The notes under the pieces are model-generated. The model did no database searches and had not been told where the DNA came from. It saw nothing but the letters and a program-made list of their open reading frames with translations. The translations under genes were made by a program, and so were the position numbers. This document shows positions 2,931 through 63,590 of a stretch of 64,000 bases of DNA, piece by piece. Numbering within the stretch: the first letter of the stretch is position 1; every line of letters starts with the position of its first letter. This DNA is from Octopus vulgaris (taxonomy: Eukaryota): the NCBI GenBank assembly GCA_951406725.2, contig OX597825.1, forward strand, positions 53,754,001 through 53,818,000. The letters run 5' to 3'.

Positions 2931-3189
2931 GGGCTATATTCAAAAATATACCTGTACATACATATATACATATATATATATATGGAGCGAGAGAAAGAGA
3001 GAGAAATGCTTACATAGATTTTTACCGATATTTAGCAGAAGTAAACTTTATAATAATTACCAACGCACAAAACTCTCGGACCATGAATCATTCTGTTACT
3101 TCTGATTAATATTAATGAAAATATGCCTTTAGTCATATTTTGAGTCTTATTCTTCCTGTTTGCATCCACATACCTGTAATGTTTACATA

Positions 3190-4113
3190 TTATATGGCTG
3201 CATGAATGCAAGCATTTGCATATAGATGTAAGTATTTAGGATTTCTCGCTTTCGAACGTTCTCCTAGAATATTCCATACATTTTCAATAGGATTGAGATC
3301 TGGGCTTTGAGCAGGCCAATCCATAAGAATAACCTTTTCAGCCTTGAAGAAGTTCATGACCACCTTAGCCTTGTGACATGGGGCATTGTCCTGCATGAAT
3401 ATGGGTGGTCGCTTAGTTGAATTTCTCAGCACAGGAAAGACATGATCTTTTACAAGTTGTTTATAAACTCCTGCATTTACCTTTCCATGTAATCGCGCCA
3501 AAGGGCCCACACCATCTCCAGATATCATTCCCCAAACTATGACACATCCTCCACCGTATTTAACACTAGTCTTAAGGCATTTAGGCGACAATTTTTCACC
3601 TACTTTTCTACGAACGTACCTTTTCCCATCTGAGCCAAATAACATAAACTTAGATTCATCACTGAAATGCACCGTTTGCCATTTTTCTTGAGACCATAAC
3701 ACATGTTCGGTTGCAAAGGTAAGACGACACTTTTTATTCTTGGAGCTGATCAGTGGCTTCACTGCAGGTCCTCTTGCTTGTAGGTCATGCTCAACTAAAC
3801 GACGAGACACAGTTTTTCGAGATAAAGTTTTCTTCAATACAATGCTCATTTTCCGAGAAACAACAGCAGCAGTTTTAAATCTGTCCTTTTTAACCAACTT
3901 TACCATAGCACGATCTTCTCTCTTGGTCGTTTTTCTTGGACTACCTGTAAACTTTCTTGCTTCACACGAACCACAATCATCGTAGACCTTAAGAATACCG
4001 TGTAGAACACTTTTTGACTTGTTAACAATCTGTGCAATAGATCCAATACTTAAATTATCCTTCCCTCGAAGCTTAATAATCTACTGACGAATTGGTAACG
4101 GAGTAAGTGGCAT
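3190..4113 (-). pseudogene. Tc1-like DD34E transposase, one premature stop and truncated C-terminus
   Basis: FSDESKF, QDNAPCH and WPAQSPDLNPIEN motifs with exactly 34 aa between the second D and E; in-frame upstream ATG at 4113 (MPLTPLPIRQ*, TAG at 4081-4083) adds the HTH region; similarity ends after RNPK near 3235. Confidence 0.93.
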
Positions 4114-4640
4114 TATATAAACAAAGTACACTTTAAATATTCTTACTAATGTCTAGTAAACGAACCGTCACGTAAACAAATTCAAAACATTAGAGTTCGC
4201 CGGTTAAATATATTAAAACACGGAGTAAAAGCAACCGTTCTGATCATTTTGGCCGCCATGGGTTTTTCAGTAAATCACTAACTCATCTATAACTTTTGTA
4301 TTATCCTCTCAAATTACACCAAAATCTCAGGCAATAACAAATAATATCGTATTTATTGTCTGTGAAAATTATAGAATATAAAACAACTTTGATATGTATA
4401 GGTATATTTTTGAATATAGCCCTCTCTTTTACTCTTTTACTTGTTTTAATCATTTGTCAGCGGCCATGGTGGAGCACAGCCTTTAGTCGAGAGAATCGAC
4501 CCCAGTACTTATTCTTTGTAAGCCTAGTACTTATTCTATCGGTTTCTTTTGTTTCTATCGGTTTCTTTGATAAAAAATTATATCTACTTTTCTGACGAAA
4601 ACAATGCCGTTCTGAACATTTTGGCCGCCACTGCACTGTA
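3235..4640 (-). mobile_element. Tc1-family DNA transposon, 3' end and right TIR missing
   Basis: Transposase ORF plus 5' terminus reading TA-CAGTG(CAGTG)GCGGCCAAAATGTTCAGAAC on the minus strand; the same 22-bp motif recurs internally near 4237-4258. Confidence 0.9.
4422..4567 (-). mobile_element. SINE family B, 3' fragment inside the Tc1 5' region
   Basis: Reverse complement of about 2800-2930. Confidence 0.88.
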
Positions 4641-4672
4641 CATGCGTACAGACACTTACGCACCCACACACA

Positions 4673-4725
<53 letters not shown>

Positions 4726-4799
4726 CAGATAGAGAGAAAGGGAGAGAGAGGGGGAGAAAGTAAGAGAAAAAGAGGGACAGAGAGAGAGAGTATGGTGCT

Positions 4800-4932
4800 A
4801 GCGTAGTTTTGCGGGAGAAGCTTGCTTTTCTTCTGAACCATACGGTTACGGATTCAGTCCCTCTGAACCTGACCAAATCTTTATCAGGGAATTTTGTACA
4901 CAGAAACTGAAAGAAACTGGTCGAGTATATAC

Positions 4933-4964
<32 letters not shown>

Positions 4965-5243
4965 GTTTGTGTGTGTGTGCGTGTGTGTGTGTATACGTTG
5001 TATGTTCGTATGTGTGTATTTATGCATGTATGTTCCTGTATGCGTTTGTTCCCCACCACCAATTAACAAACGTTGATATTTCGTTTACCTCCCTGTGACA
5101 TACCGCTTCGGCATATGGAAAGTCTTCAATACGAACAAGACTCAGAAATTACATGAATGCGTTGATGTTTTTCGACTAACACTGCGGAGCCAGTGCCCCA
5201 GCATGGCAGCAGACCAACGACTGAAACAAATGAAAGATAAAAG
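4800..5243 (+). mobile_element. SINE family B, diverged near-full copy with internal (GT)n
   Basis: Degenerate tRNA-like head (ggattcagtccc), aaactgaaagaa, internal GT tract, 3' cagcatggc...gactgaaacaa. Confidence 0.75.
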
Positions 5244-5625
5244 GTGAAATGAATAAGATATCTATACATATCGATGGAATAAATTGTGAAGACTAAATGA
5301 GTTACCGAATACAAATGCACTGACTTACATCTGCTTATGTTTCGCCAGGTAACCTATGTTACATTATCTCTTAGAAGCCAAAATTGCTTGATTTAATGTA
5401 ACTCACTTAGAGACGCATTCACATCATCGGAGTAATATCGGTTGTCTTTACCTGGTTAACAGACAGGCAATCAGTGGAACAACATGTCGGTAATTTCAGT
5501 GATGGCGATCGTATATGCTTTTAAATATTCGTAGTGAAACACCATACTGTTTATTCATGCGCTTATGCACATACTTGTACACGTGCACGTAATATATATA
5601 TACATATATATATATATGTATATTG

Positions 5626-6200
5626 GCAGGGCTGGCCTTCTAGGTAGCCGGCCTATATATGAATTATTAAGATGGCCATCCGCAATTTACAAACGAAAAA
5701 TAACAAGTGTAGTCGTTACTAAAGTGATTGAGAGGCAACTTGTTTCCCTTGTTAGTCGTTAGGAAAGTGCTCTCACCTAGCTTAAAGATGTTTTAACTCT
5801 TCTAGCAATCTTGGTGCTGACTAGCATCCTTAGTCAATTTAGTGATAATTATACTTGTTCTCTTTCGGTTGTAAATTGTGAATAGCCACATTAATAATCT
5901 CTGATATACGCTTCACTATTTTCGGCATCAATGCTTCCTATGTTGTTCTCTATATGATTGACAAGGTAAATTATTGTTGTAGCCCTCAGCAACTGAAGAA
6001 TGGGTCACTGATGAAGATAAGTCAAATCTGAAATCAGCGTTGATATGACTACATCTCGCTTACCGTAGGGGGGTTGTCTCTCTTGCCAGTCGTTTTAAAG
6101 GTGCTCCCACGCCGCTAAAAGCTGTTTCATTCTTATTTCTAGCAATGCTAGGTGCAGACTAGCACCCTCAGTCAGTTCAGTGAAAACTACACTTACATAC
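5626..6200 (+). mobile_element. Non-coding element between TA tracts carrying a hammerhead (PLE pLTR or retrozyme-like)
   Basis: About 570-bp unique block bounded by (TA)n on both sides and containing the motif at 6004-6049. Confidence 0.5.
6004..6049 (+). ncRNA. Type I hammerhead ribozyme, intact core
   Basis: GTCA-CTGATGA-AGAT(aagtcaa)ATCT-GAA-ATCA(gcgt)TGAT-A-TGAC: all three stems pair and the core is complete; predicted cleavage after A6045. Confidence 0.8.
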
Positions 6201-6290
<90 letters not shown>

Positions 6291-6439
6291 CTTCTTTTCA
6301 CCTTACAATTCTAGAAAAGTCACATTGCGACGAAAACAGGTTAGAGTTAATATTGTAAAAAAAAATTATTTTCCATACACCTATTTTCATTAAAATTTAC
6401 CTTCAATTTAGCATTCAGCCCTTTTATAATTTTTCCTTG

Positions 6440-6473
<34 letters not shown>

Positions 6474-6477
<4 letters not shown>

Positions 6478-6628
6478 CGGGATCACCGTGACCGGCCAGG
6501 CTATCAGATGCGCTTCGCATTGTTTTAGCCTTCAAATGACGTCACCCCGCTGGCTAAGCGAGCAGGACAACAGAACAAAGAGTGAGAGAAATTTGTGGTG
6601 GAAGAGTACAGCAGGGATCGCCACCACC
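6474..6628 (-). mobile_element. Fragment of a third SINE-like repeat family
   Basis: GC-richer block next to (TA)n; resembles a cephalopod SINE 3' portion from recall only. Confidence 0.45.
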
Positions 6629-7601
6629 TGTATATGTACTGAAATACGCCATTTGGACTCAACACATACAGTCAGTTATACATACTCTCCTACAGGTACA
6701 TCACTCATACACATGTGCTACCATCCCCAATGAGTACTCCCTGATGTGCAAACATACTAACTACCCACAATCCTTACAGATACACACATACAAAAAAATA
6801 TGTATACTTAGTAGTTGCGACAATTTGTCACGGAAATACACCTTTAAGAAGTTCAGTATTAAAAAACGCTGAATAGCGAATAGTTCTGAGGGTGAATAAG
6901 AATGGTGGATATCGGTATTTCGCTGGTAATTCAGCTTATTGGCAATATATATAGAAGTCACCTTGAAATGAATGCTAATCTTTTGTCTGAATTACATATG
7001 CAGATAGCGTAAAATCTATATTGTAATGAGTAAAAGTGATGCTACAGTAGAACAAAATTAAGTTTGAATTACAAGCAACTGTAATAATGTAAACTAATGT
7101 CACATTCTTAAGGCATGTGTTTCGTATATACGCTTATTAGCTCCGGAGTTTTGTTCAGGGAAAACATATATTAAATATGTGTCATACTTAATACTTTCTG
7201 GTTTGCAGTTATTCATTGATTTTAAACACTCGACGCCTTACTGGGATTTTTCATGGATGAAATTCTGCAGCTACTCAGTGTATCAAAAAAAGAAGCATAT
7301 AACATCACTAAGCATGTGACATCACCAATGTTTACGTTATTAGATTTGTTTTGACCGAGCCGACGGAGTTCTAGAGGGAGTATGAAAAGTAAAACCCGTC
7401 GTGGGGTAGAAGAAATTACAGAGGCGAGGAAATGTGGGAACGAAGAAGCGATACGAACAGAAATATATGAATACTTAAATTTTGACATTTACAGCTATTT
7501 ATATTTAGATATGTACGCACAGACTCACACAAACACCATATGTAAGTGTATAACCATACATACATACATTAATACATACATACATGAATACATACATACA
7601 T

Positions 7602-7640
<39 letters not shown>

Positions 7641-8427
7641 ACACACACACATATGTATATATACATAGTTTAGTATGGTATAGTAAGCTGGCTCACTGTG
7701 GAGCGATTATGTCCCCTGTCAGTGTATGAAACTATGCTTCCTTGGGGTTCTAAGGGTTTTTTACTCTTATTTTTAGCAATGTAGGTGCTACCCTATACAC
7801 CTCAGTTACAACTAGTGACAACTTATTTTTTTCTTTTATTGGTTTATGTTGCGTATAGCCGCAACATTAATGCGTTCATTATATCGTAATAGTTCTTCCC
7901 TATGTGTGCTTTTTACGCACAAGTACCAATCCCCCAAACAGTCATAGTTACATTTTCTTTGCGTTTAAAGAAATTTCTAACATTTCTGCTATTAAAAAAA
8001 GAAAATTGAAATAGAGTATGGTAGATTAATATGCTTTTATTAAAAATGAAATTGCAGATCACCAAACCAATAATAACCTCTCTTATTGTTAAAATAATTA
8101 ATTGTTCAATAAAAACAAGTGAACCACAAAGAAACAATGAGCGAATAGGATTTACCACATTTCAGTATTACAATGCTATTTGGCGTTGATAGTTTTTGCG
8201 ACATCAGATTTTAACAAATCTTTTCTTTTTCTTATCATACAACTACTCTTTAACTGTTTAATTAACATAAGAGTAATAATACGAGAATATAAATGTCCTA
8301 AAAGATACGATGAAAAATCAATCCCTGAAGCAAAATATAAAATTAGCAATCAAATTTCTTGTTTAAGAAGTAAATCGGTTTGGTGGATATTTATAATAAT
8401 AAACGCTATGTTATGATTAATGAAAAT

Positions 8428-11960: not shown

Positions 11961-12006
11961 GACACCTGATGAAGGCTGGAGAGTACATCAGCCGAAAAGT
12001 TATGTT
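11961..12006 (+). ncRNA. Minimal type I hammerhead, degenerate
   Basis: GACAC-CTGATGA-A-GGCTG(10 nt)CAGCC-GAA-AAGT-T-ATGTT; core and stem II intact, mismatch in the first pair of stem I. Confidence 0.6.
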
Positions 12007-25343: not shown

Positions 25344-25680
25344 TTTGTCTCATTTGGTCTAAAGTCGTAAGACAACCACCGTTATATTTTGTTTATCCAT
25401 TACTGTTTTCAATTTCGTTTTCGTCTCTTGTATTTACATCCGTCTCTTGCGTTTACATTCTTGTCTTCTACCAAGAAATCTAATGCTTACAGCTTAGTTT
25501 TTTTCTTGTGGCTGGCCGAGTTGGAGCAAATATCAGAATTGAACAGCCGAAATTTGCTATGATGATTCGGTGTCTGACTGAAGATTGAAGGCTTCGAATG
25601 ATTTGTCTGTGTTCCGTGTTCGTCCCTTCCTGTATTTCACGTTCTTTATATATAAAAACATTTATTCAAACATTTATTCT
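25341..25680 (+). mobile_element. TA-embedded non-coding element with reverse-order hammerhead motif
   Basis: Homologous to the reverse complement of 30645-31020; flanked by (TA)n on both sides. Confidence 0.75.
25515..25593 (+). ncRNA. Hammerhead-like motif, non-canonical strand order with kink-turn
   Basis: gccgagttg-GA-gcaaat-A-tcaga-attgaac-agcc-GAA-atttgc-tat-GA-tgattcggt-g-tctga-CTGAAGA-ttgaa-ggct; all helices pair. Confidence 0.65.
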
Positions 25681-30044: not shown

Positions 30045-31020
30045 AATATATATATATAAATACAAAATGGGACAAGGACGCAAAACACTCAAAGAGACGA
30101 CACAAAAGACGGACGGGTCATTCGAAGCCTCTAATCTTCAGTCAAGCATTAGATTTCTTGGAAAAAATAATAGTAATAACAGGACAAAAACAGCATGTGT
30201 CTTACGACTTTAGACGGTTCAACTTAGCTTAGCTGGCGTATTTGGAAAAAAATGCCTTTGCGGCAGACGAAGAAAACGATGTTTTCGTGGCGGTGGTCAC
30301 GTGAGAGGAGAAGAGAAAGAAAAAAAGGGGGCAAAGGAATCAAAGAGAGAGAGAAAAAGAGGGACAAAGGCACCGACGGGGGGGAAGAGAGAGAAAGAAA
30401 GAATTAAAGAGGGGAGAAGAAAGAGAGCGTGCCAAGGATTGGCTTGGCGACAGAATCAGTGAGGTGCAAAGTGAGAAAGACAGAGAAATGTGAGAGAGTG
30501 GGGAAAGAGGAGACCAAAGAATCAGAGGCAAGAAAGGAGAAAGTCAGAGGCTAGTGAAGTATAGAAAAAGTGTGTGTAGAAGTCGTACAATAGTGGAATG
30601 CTTACATACATAAGAGAACAAGATGTACGTTACGCCATAATAATATATGTATAAAAATATATATATAAAAATATAAAATGGGACGAGAACGCAAAACATT
30701 CAAAGAGACGACACAAAAAACAGACGCGTCATTCGAAGCCTCTAATCTTCAGTCAAGAACCGGATCATCCTCGCAATTTCGGCTGATTAATCTTGAGATC
30801 GCTCCGATCCGGCCAGCCCCAAGGAAAAACTAAGCTACGAGCATTAGATTTCTTGGAAAAAGAATCGAATGTATACGAAACAAGGACAGAAAAACGGACG
30901 ATGCCACACGAATATAAATACAAAAAACAATAATAGTAATAACAGGACAAAAACAGCGGGTGTCTTACGATTTTAGACAGTTCAATTTAGCTTAACTGGC
31001 GTATTTGGAAAAAAATGCCT
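30045..31020 (-). mobile_element. ~975-bp non-coding element: two direct repeats around a purine/pyrimidine-skewed spacer, between TA tracts
   Basis: About 30045-30257 and 30645-31020 share aaaatgggac...ttcgaagcctctaatcttcagtcaag and both end ggcgtatttggaaaaaaatgcct; the left copy has internal deletions. Confidence 0.8.
30737..30813 (-). ncRNA. Hammerhead-like motif, non-canonical strand order with kink-turn (best copy)
   Basis: Minus strand: gccggatcg-GA-gcgat-C-tcaaga-ttaatc-agcc-GAA-attgc-gag-GA-tgatccggt-tcttga-CTGAAGA-ttaga-ggct. Confidence 0.7.
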
Positions 31021-31037
31021 ATATATATATATATATA

Positions 31038-32600
31038 ATTATTGCAGCATCTGTTTGTTAGCTGTTGCTGGAAAGGTCCTCTGTTGGGTAATGTTGGATA
31101 GATTGCCTCTGCACATTGCTGATGAGGTTCTAACAGAATTAGAATGTGGGTTTATGGATTGTAGGAGTACTATGGATATGATATTTTCAGCTAGACAGTT
31201 GCAAGAGAAGTGCATCGAACAGAATATGGACTTATACCAGGTTGTCATTGCCCTAACTATAGCGTTTGATTCTATCAATAGAATTGCACTTTGGGAGATC
31301 CTAATAAAGCTAGCCTGCCCTGAAAAATTTGTGAGAAAGCTTAGACAGTTTCATGACCAGATGGAAGTGAAAGTTAATGTTGGAGGTACCTTATCAGATC
31401 CATTTTCTGTACAAAATGGTGAAAAGCAAGGTGATATGCAGCACATGGTCAATGCGATTTGTGTAACATGTGCAGCATTGGGTCTAACGATCAATCCAAT
31501 AAAAACTGTTATAACGTCCGCTCCCGCCGAGATGTATGTGGAACCTTTTATAAGTGTGAATGGTCAAAGGTTGGAGACTGTACTTAGATTTATTTATTTG
31601 GGAAGTACCTTGAGTACTGCTGGTTTTGATAATGAAATGTCATACAGGAAAAGCAGGGATAGTGCTTATGGTAGGCTTGATAGGCGTCTGTGAAAACACC
31701 ATAATGTATCTTCACAAATTAAAGTTTATATAACACATGCGTCCTCCCATCTTTGCTATATGGAAGTGAGGCATGGGTTGTTTACCATAGGCAGGTAAGG
31801 CAATTGCAACGATATTATCAATACTGTCTGAGAGAAATTTGGGGGATGAACTGGAAAATGGTTATTAGTAATGTGGGGTTGTAATGTGGGCTATTAGTAA
31901 TGTGGGGTTGCATGAGAGGATTGGCAGTATAAGTATAGAGTCAATGATTTTGCAAAGATATTTGAGGTGGGGGGACATTTGTTAAGGATGAGTGATGAGC
32001 GACTGCCCAAGCAGCTATTGTATGGTGAGCTGGAAGATAGCAGGAGACCAACTCATAAGGTGTAAGGATTGCTTTAAATTGCTCTAATACAGACAGGAAT
32101 TAGGAGAGGGAGGCACAAGGCCATGATGGATGGAGGAAGATAGTGCATGATGGTTGTTCAAGGTCTGAGAGGGAGAGAATGAAGTATGAGGGAATTAGGA
32201 GGGGGCTTAGAAGGAGGACTCTGGAAAGTAAGGGAGTGTTGATTTTTATGTGTGTGGTTTGTGGGAGGGGGTGTTTGAGATGTGCAAGCTTGGTGAGCCA
32301 TCAAAAGTCGCAGGAGAAATCGACCCATGATAAACAGTGATGTGGCTATTAAACTTCTCTACAAAACAAGTGTAAAATATAGGAGGATTTGCCTCTCAGT
32401 GGGAGGTCTAAAAATACATGTTAAGAGAGTGCATATGATGGCACCTGTTTCTCCTTCCAGCCAACACAGTTTTCCTGTATGTAATAAATTGTGTAAAAGC
32501 TTTGCTGCGCTTAACTTAAACCTCATATAAGGGTATCACAATGATGAATCATTTCAGTAAATCTTCTTGGCAATAGCTTTTCTCGTGTAACGGGGGTGTA
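31038..32600 (+). mobile_element. RTE (BovB-like) LINE, 5'-truncated, with internal RT deletion
   Basis: CGF...RSTMDMIFSARQLQEKCIEQN, FIYLGSTLS, LPSLLYGSEAW, RMSDERLPKQLLYGEL, then degenerate zinc-finger-like motifs; the YADD segment is absent. Confidence 0.92.
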
Positions 32601-45358: not shown

Positions 45359-45589
45359 TATTAAATATAAGCTCAACAATTTAAAGCTGGTATCCGGTGC
45401 AGAAACAACGGTTGCGATTTGTTATTAGGCCTAGTGTTTTCTATTTTCAGGTTATATTTTTCTTATATTAATCCTATATGAAAACTGAGATCCAGAACAC
45501 AGCATAAGAAGATATCCTGCTGTATTATGTAATGTTGTAGCCAAAAGGGTATGCTAGCTCTAAACGCACGTTATGGAGTTATTATACAT

Positions 45590-46020
45590 TTATACATTTA
45601 TACATACATAATAACAAAATAATATATAAACATATGCATATATACACATATGTACATACCTACATCTATATGTGTATATATATGCATATATTGGTACAGG
45701 ACACCAACAAAACATTGAACACAATGAGAAACGAAAACATAAAAACAAAAACATGGAAACAAACTTTTTTTTCAAACAACGAAAAAACAGAGTCCAAGAC
45801 ATACAACACAAGGAATATTCCCCTTCTTCAGTTGTCCCTGTTTCGGCTACTCCGCGTTCAAACGTATGGACAAGACGCGACTTCTTGAAACAGTTCTTCC
45901 CGCAAAGCAAATTAAATAAAATTTGGGATTTTTTGCGATGGGGTAAAAGTCGTAACAAGAACAGGACAGGAAAAAAGACAGTAAAACCAATACAGTCCCA
46001 ATCACTGCTATAATCCATAA
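45590..46020 (-). mobile_element. Non-coding element with reverse-order hammerhead motif (divergent subfamily)
   Basis: A-rich plus strand like the 30645 element; contains the motif at 45817-45893. Confidence 0.55.
45817..45893 (-). ncRNA. Hammerhead-like motif, non-canonical strand order (one core A missing)
   Basis: Minus strand: ctgtttc-aagaag-tcgcgt-C-ttgtcc-atac-gttt-GA-acgcgg-agtagcc-gaaacag-ggacaa-CTGAAGA-aggg-gaat. Confidence 0.55.
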
Positions 46021-46301
46021 CGTGCCAATTTTAAGTCATTTAAACATTTAACACCTTACTACTGTCACACTACCTACGTCCCTTCCTATTCTCCCTTCTC
46101 TTTCCTCTTCTTCTTCTTCGTCCCCTTCCTTCTCCTTCCTAACTTTATCACTAATGCTGTTTAGAATAACACCTACGCAATTTTCATTAAAAAAACATTC
46201 AAAAGAAATATTTTCATCAATTAAACAGCCACTGCTACAACCAACTGTGGGTCAGCGCAGCTGACCATTTAGCAGACTACTGACATGTCACACCCACATT
46301 G

Positions 46302-46541: not shown

Positions 46542-46638
46542 ATATCACAATAACTGAAACCGGTACTGAAATTTCTTTTTTATAAAATTATTTTAGCATT
46601 TTCTATCCATATATATCAACTCGTGTGTTCCTTTTCAT

Positions 46639-46686
<48 letters not shown>

Positions 46687-46801
46687 ATATATATAAGGAT
46701 GAAAAGGAACACACGAGTTGATATATAAGGATAGAAAATGCTAAAAGAATTTTATAAAAAAAACATTTCAGTACCGGTTTCAGTTATTGTGATATATATA
46801 T

Positions 46802-46842
<41 letters not shown>

Positions 46843-46862
46843 ATGAAAAGCAACACACGAGT

Positions 46863-46870
<8 letters not shown>
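46542..46870. repeat. Foldback inverted repeat (~100-bp arms) around (TA)n, plus a third partial arm
   Basis: About 46542-46643 is the reverse complement of about 46694-46795; the inner end is repeated at 46838-46870. Confidence 0.9.
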
Positions 46871-62839: not shown

Positions 62840-63590
62840 ATATATGTATATATAATTTCTTTTTTAAATGGAATAAGAACGTAACGGACAATTAAAGCAT
62901 ACGGACAGATAGACGATACAAAGACAGACAGGAAAAACCAGGATGGGTCATCTGCGGCCCTCTATTCATCAGTGAAGCTTGCAATTAACATTACAGTTTC
63001 AGCCTGTTACACTTCAGACTATTCAAAACTGGTAACCCCACCCCACAAAAAATCTAAGATAAGGGCATTAACGTTTTGGAAGAAAGCAGGCGAATGTGTA
63101 CAGCACAGACAAAAAAATAACGGAGAAGATTACAAAGACAAACAACAAAAGAAAAACAAAATGTGTCTTTTGACTAATAAAGACAAGTTAAGTTCAGCTG
63201 GCGTGAGGAGTGAAAGCCTTGTAGCGCAAACATAGAGGAAATTCTGAACACAGAAAATCAAGGTGTTGCACGGGTACAGGTCAGGCCAAGAAGGAAAGAT
63301 CATACTTGGCCGAACACCGGTCACGTGGAAGGAGTAGAGAGAGGTAGGGGCAAATTGAAGAATTAGGGAAGAGAGAATGTGAGAGAGACACAGAAAAAAC
63401 GTACATATGAGATAATGAAGGAAAGTAGAAAGTTTAACGAAAGAGAATGCCAAGCAACGTGTGAGATGGGAAGCGAGAAAAAGGAAGAAGGAAAGGAAGA
63501 AGACAGTATAAGGGGGACTAAACGAAGGAGAAATAAAAGTTATACAGAATTTAGATACATATTTACTTACAAGCATATATATTGCACCTG
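62840..63590 (-). mobile_element. Diverged relative of the 30045-31020 element (one repeat plus spacer)
   Basis: Shares gggtcat...tcatcag, ctaag...gcatta...ttgga and ggtcacgtg followed by a purine-rich tract. Confidence 0.6.
62956..63036 (-). ncRNA. Hammerhead-like motif, non-canonical strand order
   Basis: Minus strand: ttaccagtttt-GA-atagt-C-tgaagt-gtaaca-ggct-GAA-actgt-aat-gt-taattgcaa-gcttca-CTGATGA-atagag-ggcc. Confidence 0.6.

What the first reader, a model, noticed from the sequence alone, without database searches (positions are those of the whole stretch)
45817..45893. Same reverse-order hammerhead architecture in an element with little primary sequence similarity
Seen: GUC triplet (C at 45874), perfect 6-bp stem I ttgtcc/ggacaa directly before CTGAAGA, stem III tcgcgt/acgcgg, and outer helix ctgtttc/gaaacag abutting stem I' with no linker. 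The helix sequences differ from the 25515 and 30737 copies. One A of GAAA is missing and the kink loop is irregular, so this copy is probably inactive. Inference: structure conserved without sequence suggests an old, selected RNA fold shared by several repeat subfamilies.
Basis: partly seen in the sequence, partly recalled or inferred. Interest (0 to 1): 0.75.

Follow-up and report, generated by a model that had tools for sequence, protein, structure and literature searches.

The report
Split-core hammerhead in Naiad-like repeats
This is a damaged copy of a very common short animal repeat whose RNA is predicted to fold into a self-cutting hammerhead ribozyme wired in an unusual order, and the same predicted fold sits at the tail of several Naiad jumping genes that were reported to lack hammerheads.

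Summary
GUC (C at 45874), a 6-bp stem I, stem III, a 7-bp outer helix and CUGAAGA lie in S-G-C order; 2 of 1000 shuffled windows match as well. Contigs of four public runs show a very high-copy repeat whose closest subfamily restores GAAA. It also restores a 5-bp Watson-Crick stem II, whose partner strand lies upstream of the whole fold rather than after CUGAAGA. The sequence-unrelated copies at 25510 and 30818 show the same. The fold has the four helices of the validated type-SGC hammerhead (PMC10085705) but is opened between A9 and G10.1, a break that paper assumed does not occur. I then predicted the fold for Naiad Penelope-like elements, reported to lack canonical hammerheads (PMC8557442). 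Of 31 of 54 consensus 3' ends read by eye, 7 carry this split form (ctenophore, coral, jellyfish, acanthocephalan, squid, two octopuses) and 6 nematode ends carry type-CSG hammerheads. This copy is probably dead. Cleavage, transcription and the Naiad origin of this family are inferred, not shown.

The parts
45895..45899 (-). Upstream strand of stem II (begins with G10.1); predicted 5' end of the ribozyme
   Evidence: Pairs with 45860-45864: 3 of 5 in this copy, 5 of 5 WC with the majority letters at 45895, 45863, 45860. Same position as the 5/5 WC strand in the 25510 and 30818 copies.
45894..45894 (-). Single purine spacer between the stem II strand and the outer helix
   Evidence: Sequence; the same one-purine spacer stands in most rows of the published type-SGC alignment.
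45887..45893 (-). Outer (stem I-II interaction) helix, 5' strand
   Evidence: 7 of 7 WC with 45838-45844.
45881..45886 (-). Purine-rich internal loop, 5' side (irregular; a k-turn-type loop in the other window family)
   Evidence: Sequence; one extra base behind 45884 in 23-45% of depth and in loose ends.
45874..45880 (-). Stem III strand and GUC triplet; predicted cleavage between 45874 and 45873
   Evidence: Descriptor scans; site by analogy to hammerheads, not observed.
45868..45873 (-). Stem I, strand 3' of the cleavage site
   Evidence: 6 of 6 WC with 45832-45837.
45865..45867 (-). 3-nt linker from stem I to stem II
   Evidence: Sequence; type-SGC ribozymes typically have 3 nt here.
45860..45864 (-). 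Stem II strand before GAAA; two substitutions in this copy
   Evidence: Other letters at 45860 in 88-92% and at 45863 in 81-95% of depth in 4 of 4 runs.
45852..45859 (-). GAA (GAAA in the subfamily) and second strand of stem III
   Evidence: Loose-end consensuses before 45885 (4 of 4 runs, 41-75 contigs, agreement 0.84-0.88) and behind 45858 (3 runs, agreement 0.52-0.57) show the fourth core base; no row for it in the indel table.
45845..45851 (-). Internal loop, 3' side
   Evidence: Other letters at 45845 (67-100%) and 45846 (90-99%) in the family.
45838..45844 (-). Outer helix, 3' strand, abutting stem I
45832..45837 (-). Stem I, strand before the core
   Evidence: a listed variant at 45835 (15-37% in three runs) would turn one pair into G.U unless compensated.
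45825..45831 (-). CUGAAGA core; predicted 3' end of the ribozyme
   Evidence: The only listed core variant is the free position N7 (45827, 34% in run X14); 26 further rows were not shown.
45690..46060 (-). Host element: short, non-coding, very high-copy dispersed repeat ending in a TA-rich microsatellite; upstream boundary not fixed
   Evidence: 3097-8147 contigs laid per run on 45700-46060 at 80% or more; 190 nt from site to first (TA)3; no Pfam match in 18 frames from 42.4-51.0 kb.
25510..25584 (+). Same fold, second family (copy A25), full core, k-turn-type loop
   Evidence: Stems I 5, III 7, outer 9, upstream stem II 5/5 WC.
30746..30818 (-). Same fold, second family (copy B30), best-preserved copy in the window
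   Evidence: Stems I 6, III 5, outer 10, upstream stem II 5/5 WC.
62966..63043 (-). Same fold, decayed member of the second family (copy D63)
   Evidence: Stems I 6 and III 5 with compensated pairs; upstream stem II weak.

Best explanation
This is a decayed copy of a very high-copy short repeat, likely a non-autonomous Naiad-type Penelope-like retroelement, whose RNA is predicted to fold into a hammerhead ribozyme of reversed (SGC-class) block order with the chain opened between A9 and G10.1, and would cut itself after the GUC at 45874. The RNA would form one long hairpin (outer helix, internal loop, stem III) whose large loop holds the cleavage site, one stem I strand, a short linker, one stem II strand and GAAA. 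The 3' tail would fold back to make stem I and deliver CUGAAGA, and the 5' tail would fold back to make stem II. Shown: the sequence parts, their order, their restoration in the subfamily, and the same pairings with other letters in other families. Inferred: folding, catalysis, a role in cutting element RNA out of longer or tandem transcripts (the role proposed for other Penelope-like hammerheads), and mobilisation by a Naiad enzyme. This copy has lost a core A and two of five stem II pairs and is likely inactive.
For: (1) Subfamily letters restore GAAA and turn the upstream stem II from 3 of 5 pairs into 5 of 5 WC; three separate positions are corrected (4 of 4 runs). (2) Copies A25 and B30: upstream stem II 5/5 WC, -8.4 and -8.3 kcal/mol, against at most 2 of 5 pairs for a strand starting within 3 nt of the core. 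(3) On the 4-row alignment 75.8% of cells pair and 10 of 24 pairs change on both sides (1 of 500 shuffles); slid controls give 32-50%. (4) The geometry equals that of validated type-SGC ribozymes: 5-bp stem II strand, one purine, interaction helix, partner strand next to stem I, 3-nt linker. (5) Prediction noted and then met: 7 of 31 Naiad 3' ends carry the split form, six with 5-6 perfect upstream stem II pairs and one with 4 of 5, all starting with G; none gives more than 2 pairs directly after the core (read by eye). (6) Six nematode Naiad ends carry type-CSG hammerheads, a circular permutation of the same wiring. (7) Motif-only controls: 0 of 285 and 0 of 120 collection hits have stems I and III of 4 bp or more, while both window hits of the first pattern do. 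(8) A9 pairs with G12 and G10.1 with C11.1 in a crystal structure, and a one-base insertion between A9 and G10.1 is natural, so the backbone can leave the core there.
Against: No cleavage, transcript or read-end evidence; only contigs could be laid. No example of a hammerhead open at A9/G10.1 turned up in my searches, and Eckert et al. state that no known alignment has more than 1-2 inserted bases there. A25, B30 and D63 also have a 4-bp partner 5-6 nt after the core (-5.0, -5.0, -6.0 kcal/mol); in D63 it beats the upstream strand (-0.7) and has one compensated pair. In this family the bases after the core could give 4 pairs, two of them G.U. Pseudoknot-free minimum-energy folds of A25, B30 and D63 differ from the model. 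The family letters come from the 1-2% of depth that aligns across the core and are unphased. In one search stem II shows no change on both sides, the structure was drawn on B30, and this copy's row is partly out of register. No sequence link of this family to a published Naiad: two short motifs gave 0 hits and a third one unrelated hit. 16 of 31 Naiad ends showed nothing clear, and the ctenophore record has only a 2-bp stem I.
Confidence: 0.7

Rival explanations
1. It is a type-SGC hammerhead in the ordinary sense: stem II is made by a strand 3' of CUGAAGA (after a 1-6 nt insertion), and the upstream strand is a competing off-switch.
For: 4-bp downstream partner in A25, B30 and D63, better than the upstream one in D63 and with one compensated pair. 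In this family one A plus four G could pair with the restored pre-GAAA strand. Ribozymes of mobile RNAs often need to be switched off.
Against: None of the 7 Naiad split-form ends has more than 2 such pairs, while all have the upstream strand. The upstream strand begins with the conserved G and sits one base from the interaction helix, as the true stem II strand does in SGC ribozymes. Insertions of more than 2 nt are unreported there.
Confidence: 0.12
2. The fold is real and selected but does not cleave alone: it works in trans or as a dimer, needs a protein (for example a k-turn binder), or has become a binding signal for the Naiad reverse transcriptase.
For: Minimal Penelope hammerheads cleave poorly and were proposed to act as dimers or with cofactors. 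A 10-nt palindrome follows the core here (45812-45821). Standard k-turn sequence features occur in A25, B30 and the two Octopus Naiads.
Against: All core bases and three full stems lie within 75 nt of one molecule. The only listed core variant is N7. Stem III is 5-7 bp, unlike the 1-2 bp stem III that forces dimers. The k-turn is absent from several Naiad examples.
Confidence: 0.13
3. The motif has been kept by the host (for example as an intronic or 3'-UTR regulator) rather than by retroelement propagation.
For: No autonomous partner was found near the locus; cephalopod Naiads are described as long inactive.
Against: This copy is decayed relative to its family, the family is very high-copy, and the fold lies at the 3' end of autonomous elements.
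Confidence: 0.03
4. Chance pairing in a repeat-rich window.
For: With loose thresholds 47 of 1000 shuffled windows give a GAA-only hit.
Against: Restoration of GAAA and stem II in the family; three further copies; recurrence in Naiads of several phyla.
Confidence: 0.02

Closest known systems
Type-SGC hammerhead ribozymes (HRIMA-1 and variants; Eckert et al. 2023, PMC10085705; main text parts 1-6 of 8 and supplement parts 1, 8, 18 seen)
   Same: Block order S, G, C; stems I-III plus an interaction helix with the same neighbours; about 3-nt linker between stems I and II; one purine after the stem II strand.
   Different: There the stem II strand follows CUGAnGA(U) and the ends lie between the interaction helix and stem III. 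Here those two are joined through an internal loop and the chain is open after A9. Theirs occur only in metatranscriptomes, none in genomes of known organisms; their search pattern demanded CUGAUGA(U)G, which this form cannot match.
Type-CSG hammerhead ribozymes (same paper)
   Same: Same cyclic wiring and interaction helix. Six nematode Naiad consensus ends fit this type by eye.
   Different: Known from two metagenomic sequences only; block C is intact and comes first.
Naiad Penelope-like elements (Craig et al. 2021, PMC8557442; passages, section 15, supplement part 1 and search excerpts seen)
   Same: (TA)n insertion bias, presence in cephalopods, high copy number, and the same split fold near the 3' end in 7 of 31 ends read.
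   Different: No ORF here and no sequence match shown. The authors reported no canonical hammerhead and flagged only 'HHR_core' or 'HHR_half_core'.
Type I hammerheads of Penelope pseudo-LTRs and non-LTR retrozymes (PMC4209133, PMC7229834: passages; bioRxiv 10.64898/2026.07.22.740005: parts 1-2 of 5 and passages)
   Same: Short non-coding, Penelope-related repeats with a hammerhead, presumed to process element RNA.
   Different: Canonical C-G-S order, often a minimal stem III and dimer action, tandem arrays. The copies here are dispersed monomers with reversed order.
Pseudoknot-containing (PK) hammerhead (PMC11300833, passages)
   Same: A helix rather than loop-loop contacts ties stems I and II together.
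   Different: There A9 is joined to G10.1 within the loop that forms the pseudoknot; the passages seen describe no reordering of blocks.

Membership tests
Hammerhead ribozyme class | CUGANGA directly after a stem I strand | tested here: met
   45831-45825 after a 6-bp stem.
Hammerhead ribozyme class | GAAA between stems II and III | tested here: met
   Met in the subfamily by loose-end consensuses and in A25, B30, D63; not met in this copy (GAA).
Hammerhead ribozyme class | NUH triplet between stems III and I with A15.1-U16.1 | tested here: met
   GUC at 45876-45874.
Hammerhead ribozyme class | Stem II closed by G10.1-C11.1 | tested here: met
   5 of 5 WC from an upstream strand in the subfamily, A25 and B30; 3 of 5 in this copy.
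Hammerhead ribozyme class | Site-specific self-cleavage | not testable with these tools
   Only contigs were available; no read ends.
Rfam hammerhead models (types I-III) | Covariance-model match | tested here: not met
   45700-46060 gave one irrelevant hit at E up to 10; the 150 of 256 whole-window rows shown were all microRNA models on microsatellites.
Type-SGC hammerhead | Order S, G, C with an interaction helix next to stem I | tested here: met
Type-SGC hammerhead | Stem II strand within 0-2 nt after CUGAnGA (block C intact) | tested here: not met
   At most 2 of 5 pairs in A25, B30, D63 and in 7 Naiad ends. In this family only a weak 4-pair option with two G.U.
Type-CSG hammerhead | Order C, S, G | tested here: not met
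   CUGAAGA comes last.
Non-LTR retrozyme | Tandem repeats, each with a type I hammerhead | tested here: not met
   Single copy; no second copy in the window and no tandem unit in 45560-46300.
Non-LTR retrozyme | Circular RNA intermediates | not testable with these tools
   No RNA data.
Naiad PLE (non-autonomous derivative) | Insertion in (TA)n | tested here: inconclusive
   TA microsatellite downstream of all four copies (114-190 nt) and upstream of two; none upstream of this copy within 330 nt. The window is rich in such repeats.
Naiad PLE (non-autonomous derivative) | 3' sequence similarity to an autonomous Naiad | tested here: inconclusive
   Fold shared, and the 5-nt linker of B30 recurs in two cnidarian Naiads. 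Only short exact motifs could be searched and none matched; no alignment was run.
Naiad PLE (autonomous) | N-terminal GIY-YIG plus RT ORF | tested here: not met
   No Pfam match in 18 frames around the locus.
Standard k-turn (rules recalled, not from a call) | 3-nt bulge followed by tandem G.A pairs between two helices | tested here: not met
   Met by sequence in A25, B30 and two Octopus Naiads; not met in this copy, nor with the family letters.

The most novel reading that the evidence does not exclude
Naiad retroelements across animal phyla carry non-circularly permuted hammerheads. One widespread form, amplified to thousands of copies in this genome, is a seventh natural topology in which the conserved C block is split and the catalytic core assembles from the two tails of a single bent hairpin. 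It would be the first such permutation in animal chromosomes, and would show that Naiads keep a self-cleaving ribozyme (split, CSG or twister) where canonical descriptors saw none.
Probability: 0.65. Interest if true: 0.85.

Novelty: new variant of a known kind. Interest (0 to 1): 0.78.

Why it matters
It offers a direct answer to a stated puzzle, why Naiad elements proliferate without the hammerhead that other Penelope-like elements carry, and so bears on what these ribozymes do in retrotransposition. It would move non-circular hammerhead permutations from rare environmental RNAs into animal genomes at high copy number. It would also break the published assumption that limits hammerheads to six permutations. 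The test is cheap: a 75-nt RNA with a predicted cut site and clear compensatory mutants. A ribozyme whose ends lie at A9/G10.1 would also be a new scaffold for RNA engineering.

Tried and rejected
No whole genome is held, so no phased family alignment could be built. Rfam gave nothing relevant; ARAGORN found no tRNA head. A family-specific pattern found 0 matches in metagenome contigs. A second pattern gave 120 viral loci (cut at the limit), 0 with both stems. These are partial scans, not proof of absence. No RNA holder was listed; this says nothing on expression. One search used a mis-indexed structure string and is void; one search replaces it. Look-ups of earlier findings by place, by sequence and by two word sets were empty. 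A 10-nt motif shared by both window families was not above chance (9 matches, 12 of 100 shuffles as high). HDV-like and box C/D snoRNA readings were considered from recalled features and dropped: the core, the NUH site and all three hammerhead stems fit together and covary. A hint that upstream stem II variants (45896 and 45897, 14-28% of depth) match a different pre-GAAA strand in a larger subfamily rests on unphased loose ends of 0.67-0.71 agreement and is not counted. 23 of 54 Naiad records, and all but the last 330-550 nt of those read, were not seen. The bioRxiv supplements were not opened; they could bear on whether retrozyme surveys caught such forms.

Full report
Observation. The features lie on the minus strand. 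Read 5' to 3' they are: outer helix strand 45893-45887, internal loop, stem III strand 45880-45875, C17 at 45874, stem I strand 45873-45868, 3-nt linker, 45864-45860, GAA 45859-45857, stem III partner, internal loop, outer helix partner 45844-45838, stem I partner 45837-45832, CUGAAGA 45831-45825. A descriptor scan of both strands finds four such S-G-C arrangements in the window: 25532, 30797 and 63017 with GAAA, and 45874 with GAA. No shuffle of 200 gave three GAAA hits. For this copy alone, 47 of 1000 shuffled windows give a loose hit and 2 of 1000 one with its own helix lengths; those thresholds were chosen afterwards. The other three copies form one family; this copy aligns to them no better than shuffled sequence.

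The family. No genome is held. Runs of five coded organisms hold parts of the region, and I laid four of the 24 listed runs on 45700-46060 at 80% likeness. Between 3097 and 8147 contigs lie there per run, so this is a very high-copy repeat; depth is not a copy number. Among contigs that cross the core (about 1-2% of peak depth, so the closest subfamily), 45860 differs in 88-92%, 45863 in 81-95% and 45867 in 71-90%. Position 45895 differs in 64-85%. Two sets of loose ends show a fourth core base, restoring GAAA; the indel table has no row for it. With these letters 45899-45895 pairs with 45860-45864 as five Watson-Crick pairs starting G-C, against three pairs in this copy. The only listed variant inside CUGAAGA is N7; 26 rows were withheld. 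The internal loop does not become a standard k-turn. These letters are unphased majorities.

Where stem II comes from. In A25 and B30 the strand just upstream of the outer helix also pairs 5 of 5 with the pre-GAAA strand, while a strand starting within 3 nt of the core gives at most 2 pairs. Against this, A25, B30 and D63 have a 4-bp partner 5-6 nt after the core; in decayed D63 it is the stronger one and has one compensated pair. On a 4-row alignment 10 of 24 pairs change on both sides (1 of 500 shuffles; slid controls 32-50% paired against 76%). Stem II contributes none of these, the structure was drawn on B30, and this copy's row is partly out of register. Pseudoknot-free folding gives other structures for three of four copies.

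Comparison with type SGC. Eckert et al. (PMC10085705; main text parts 1-6 of 8; supplement parts 1, 8, 18) validated hammerheads in S-G-C order with a fourth helix that ties stems I and II, all four helices being required. They assumed CUGAnGA and its stem II strand cannot be separated, giving six permutations. [quoted passage not shown] Their alignment shows a 5-nt stem II strand, one purine, then the interaction strand, with its partner next to stem I. The window's fold has the same neighbours but different ends: it is a circular permutation of SGC opened between A9 and G10.1. In a hammerhead crystal structure A9 pairs with G12 and G10.1 with C11.1 (PMC11300833, passages), and SGC ribozymes carry a bulged U at this step, so an opening is plausible. 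That it still cleaves is inference.

Out-of-sample test. Craig et al. (PMC8557442; passages and section 15) report that Naiad Penelope-like elements prefer (TA)n, lack canonical hammerheads, and sometimes have unexplained core halves 35-50 nt apart. I noted the prediction and then read the last 330-550 nt of 31 of the 54 consensus sequences by eye in search excerpts of File S5. Records were assigned by header order against the metadata. Seven show the split form. Obim and Ovul: stem II 5/5, stem I 6, k-turn-type loop whose bulge differs between them. Esco: 4/5. The record before Plae (2_Movir): 5/5. An Acropora record: 6/6, outer helix 10. Plae: 6/6. Bfor: 6/6, outer helix 16, but stem I only 2. 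None gives more than 2 pairs directly after the core. Six nematode ends (1-3_Nbra, Hcon, Hpol, Asuum) are type CSG with covarying stems; that type was known from two sequences. One spider end has S-G-C order with unclear stem II, one jellyfish end is twister-like (features recalled), and 16 show nothing clear in the part seen.

What the element is. It has no coding match nearby, no tRNA head and no tandem unit, and ends 190 nt after the site in a TA-rich repeat; the other copies end after 114-162 nt. I infer a non-autonomous Naiad-type element, although no sequence link to a published Naiad was shown. The host is probably an octopus; this rests on composition and repeats I recall, not on a call.

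Mechanism. The transcript would form a bent hairpin whose loop is captured by both tails, building the standard core, with G12 as base and the G8 2'-OH as acid as in other hammerheads. Cleavage would cut element RNA out of read-through or tandem transcripts, as proposed for other Penelope hammerheads (PMC4209133, passages). This copy, lacking a core A and two stem II pairs, is likely inactive. No RNA evidence could be obtained.

Novelty. Ten searches of the held library (listings, plus passages of PMC3088659, PMC7229834, PMC13725137 and bioRxiv 10.64898/2026.07.22.740005) found no report of permuted hammerheads in Naiads or animal genomes, nor of a split C block. Subscription journals are largely absent from that library. 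Earlier AI notes of this scan mention twisters and a rearranged hammerhead in Naiad-type elements of other genomes; they are leads, not support. Partial collection scans found no example outside animals.

Verdict. A real, probably dead copy of a selected RNA fold, best read as a new permutation of the hammerhead carried by Naiad-type elements. New variant of a known kind; interest 0.78; confidence in the full mechanism 0.7.

Noticed in passing
PMC8557442 File S5, 3' ends of six nematode Naiad records: Complete type-CSG hammerheads with covarying stems I-III and a 9-13 bp interaction helix; this type was known from two metagenomic sequences only.
   Followed up: partly
PMC8557442 File S5, record before Naiad-2_Movir: A twister-like motif (features recalled) stands where sister elements have the split hammerhead, suggesting ribozyme exchange among Naiads.
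   Followed up: no
PMC8557442 File S5, record before Naiad_Sdum: S-G-C order with long stems I and III and an outer helix, but a local hairpin where the stem II strand is expected.
   Followed up: no
PMC8557442 File S5, record before Naiad_Obim: The bivalve Naiad end has a different motif, not a hammerhead; possibly another structured RNA.
   Followed up: no
window 30050-30241 (-): Internally deleted copy of the B30 family about 400 bp from B30, same strand; keeps CUGAAGA but has lost the rest of the ribozyme.
   Followed up: partly
window 11966-11997 (+): Canonical-order hammerhead piece (CUGAUGA, one inserted A, 5-bp stem II, GAAA) whose pre-GAAA strand equals that of B30; stems I and III not evident.
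   Followed up: no
window 46550-46790 and 46830-46870: About 100-bp inverted repeat around a (TA)n run, with a further partial copy; MITE-like or an inverted Penelope end.
   Followed up: no
window 45566-45577 and 46014-46025: Perfect 12-nt inverted repeat 436 nt apart flanking the element; marginal against chance.
   Followed up: no
window 45812-45821: 10-nt palindrome just after the core; could mediate dimer contacts.
   Followed up: no
window 3190-4080 (-): Open Tc1/mariner transposase frame of 296 aa (PF01498, PF13358).
   Followed up: partly
window 30977-31690 (+): Reverse-transcriptase fragment (PF00078) abutting the B30 copy on the opposite strand.
   Followed up: partly
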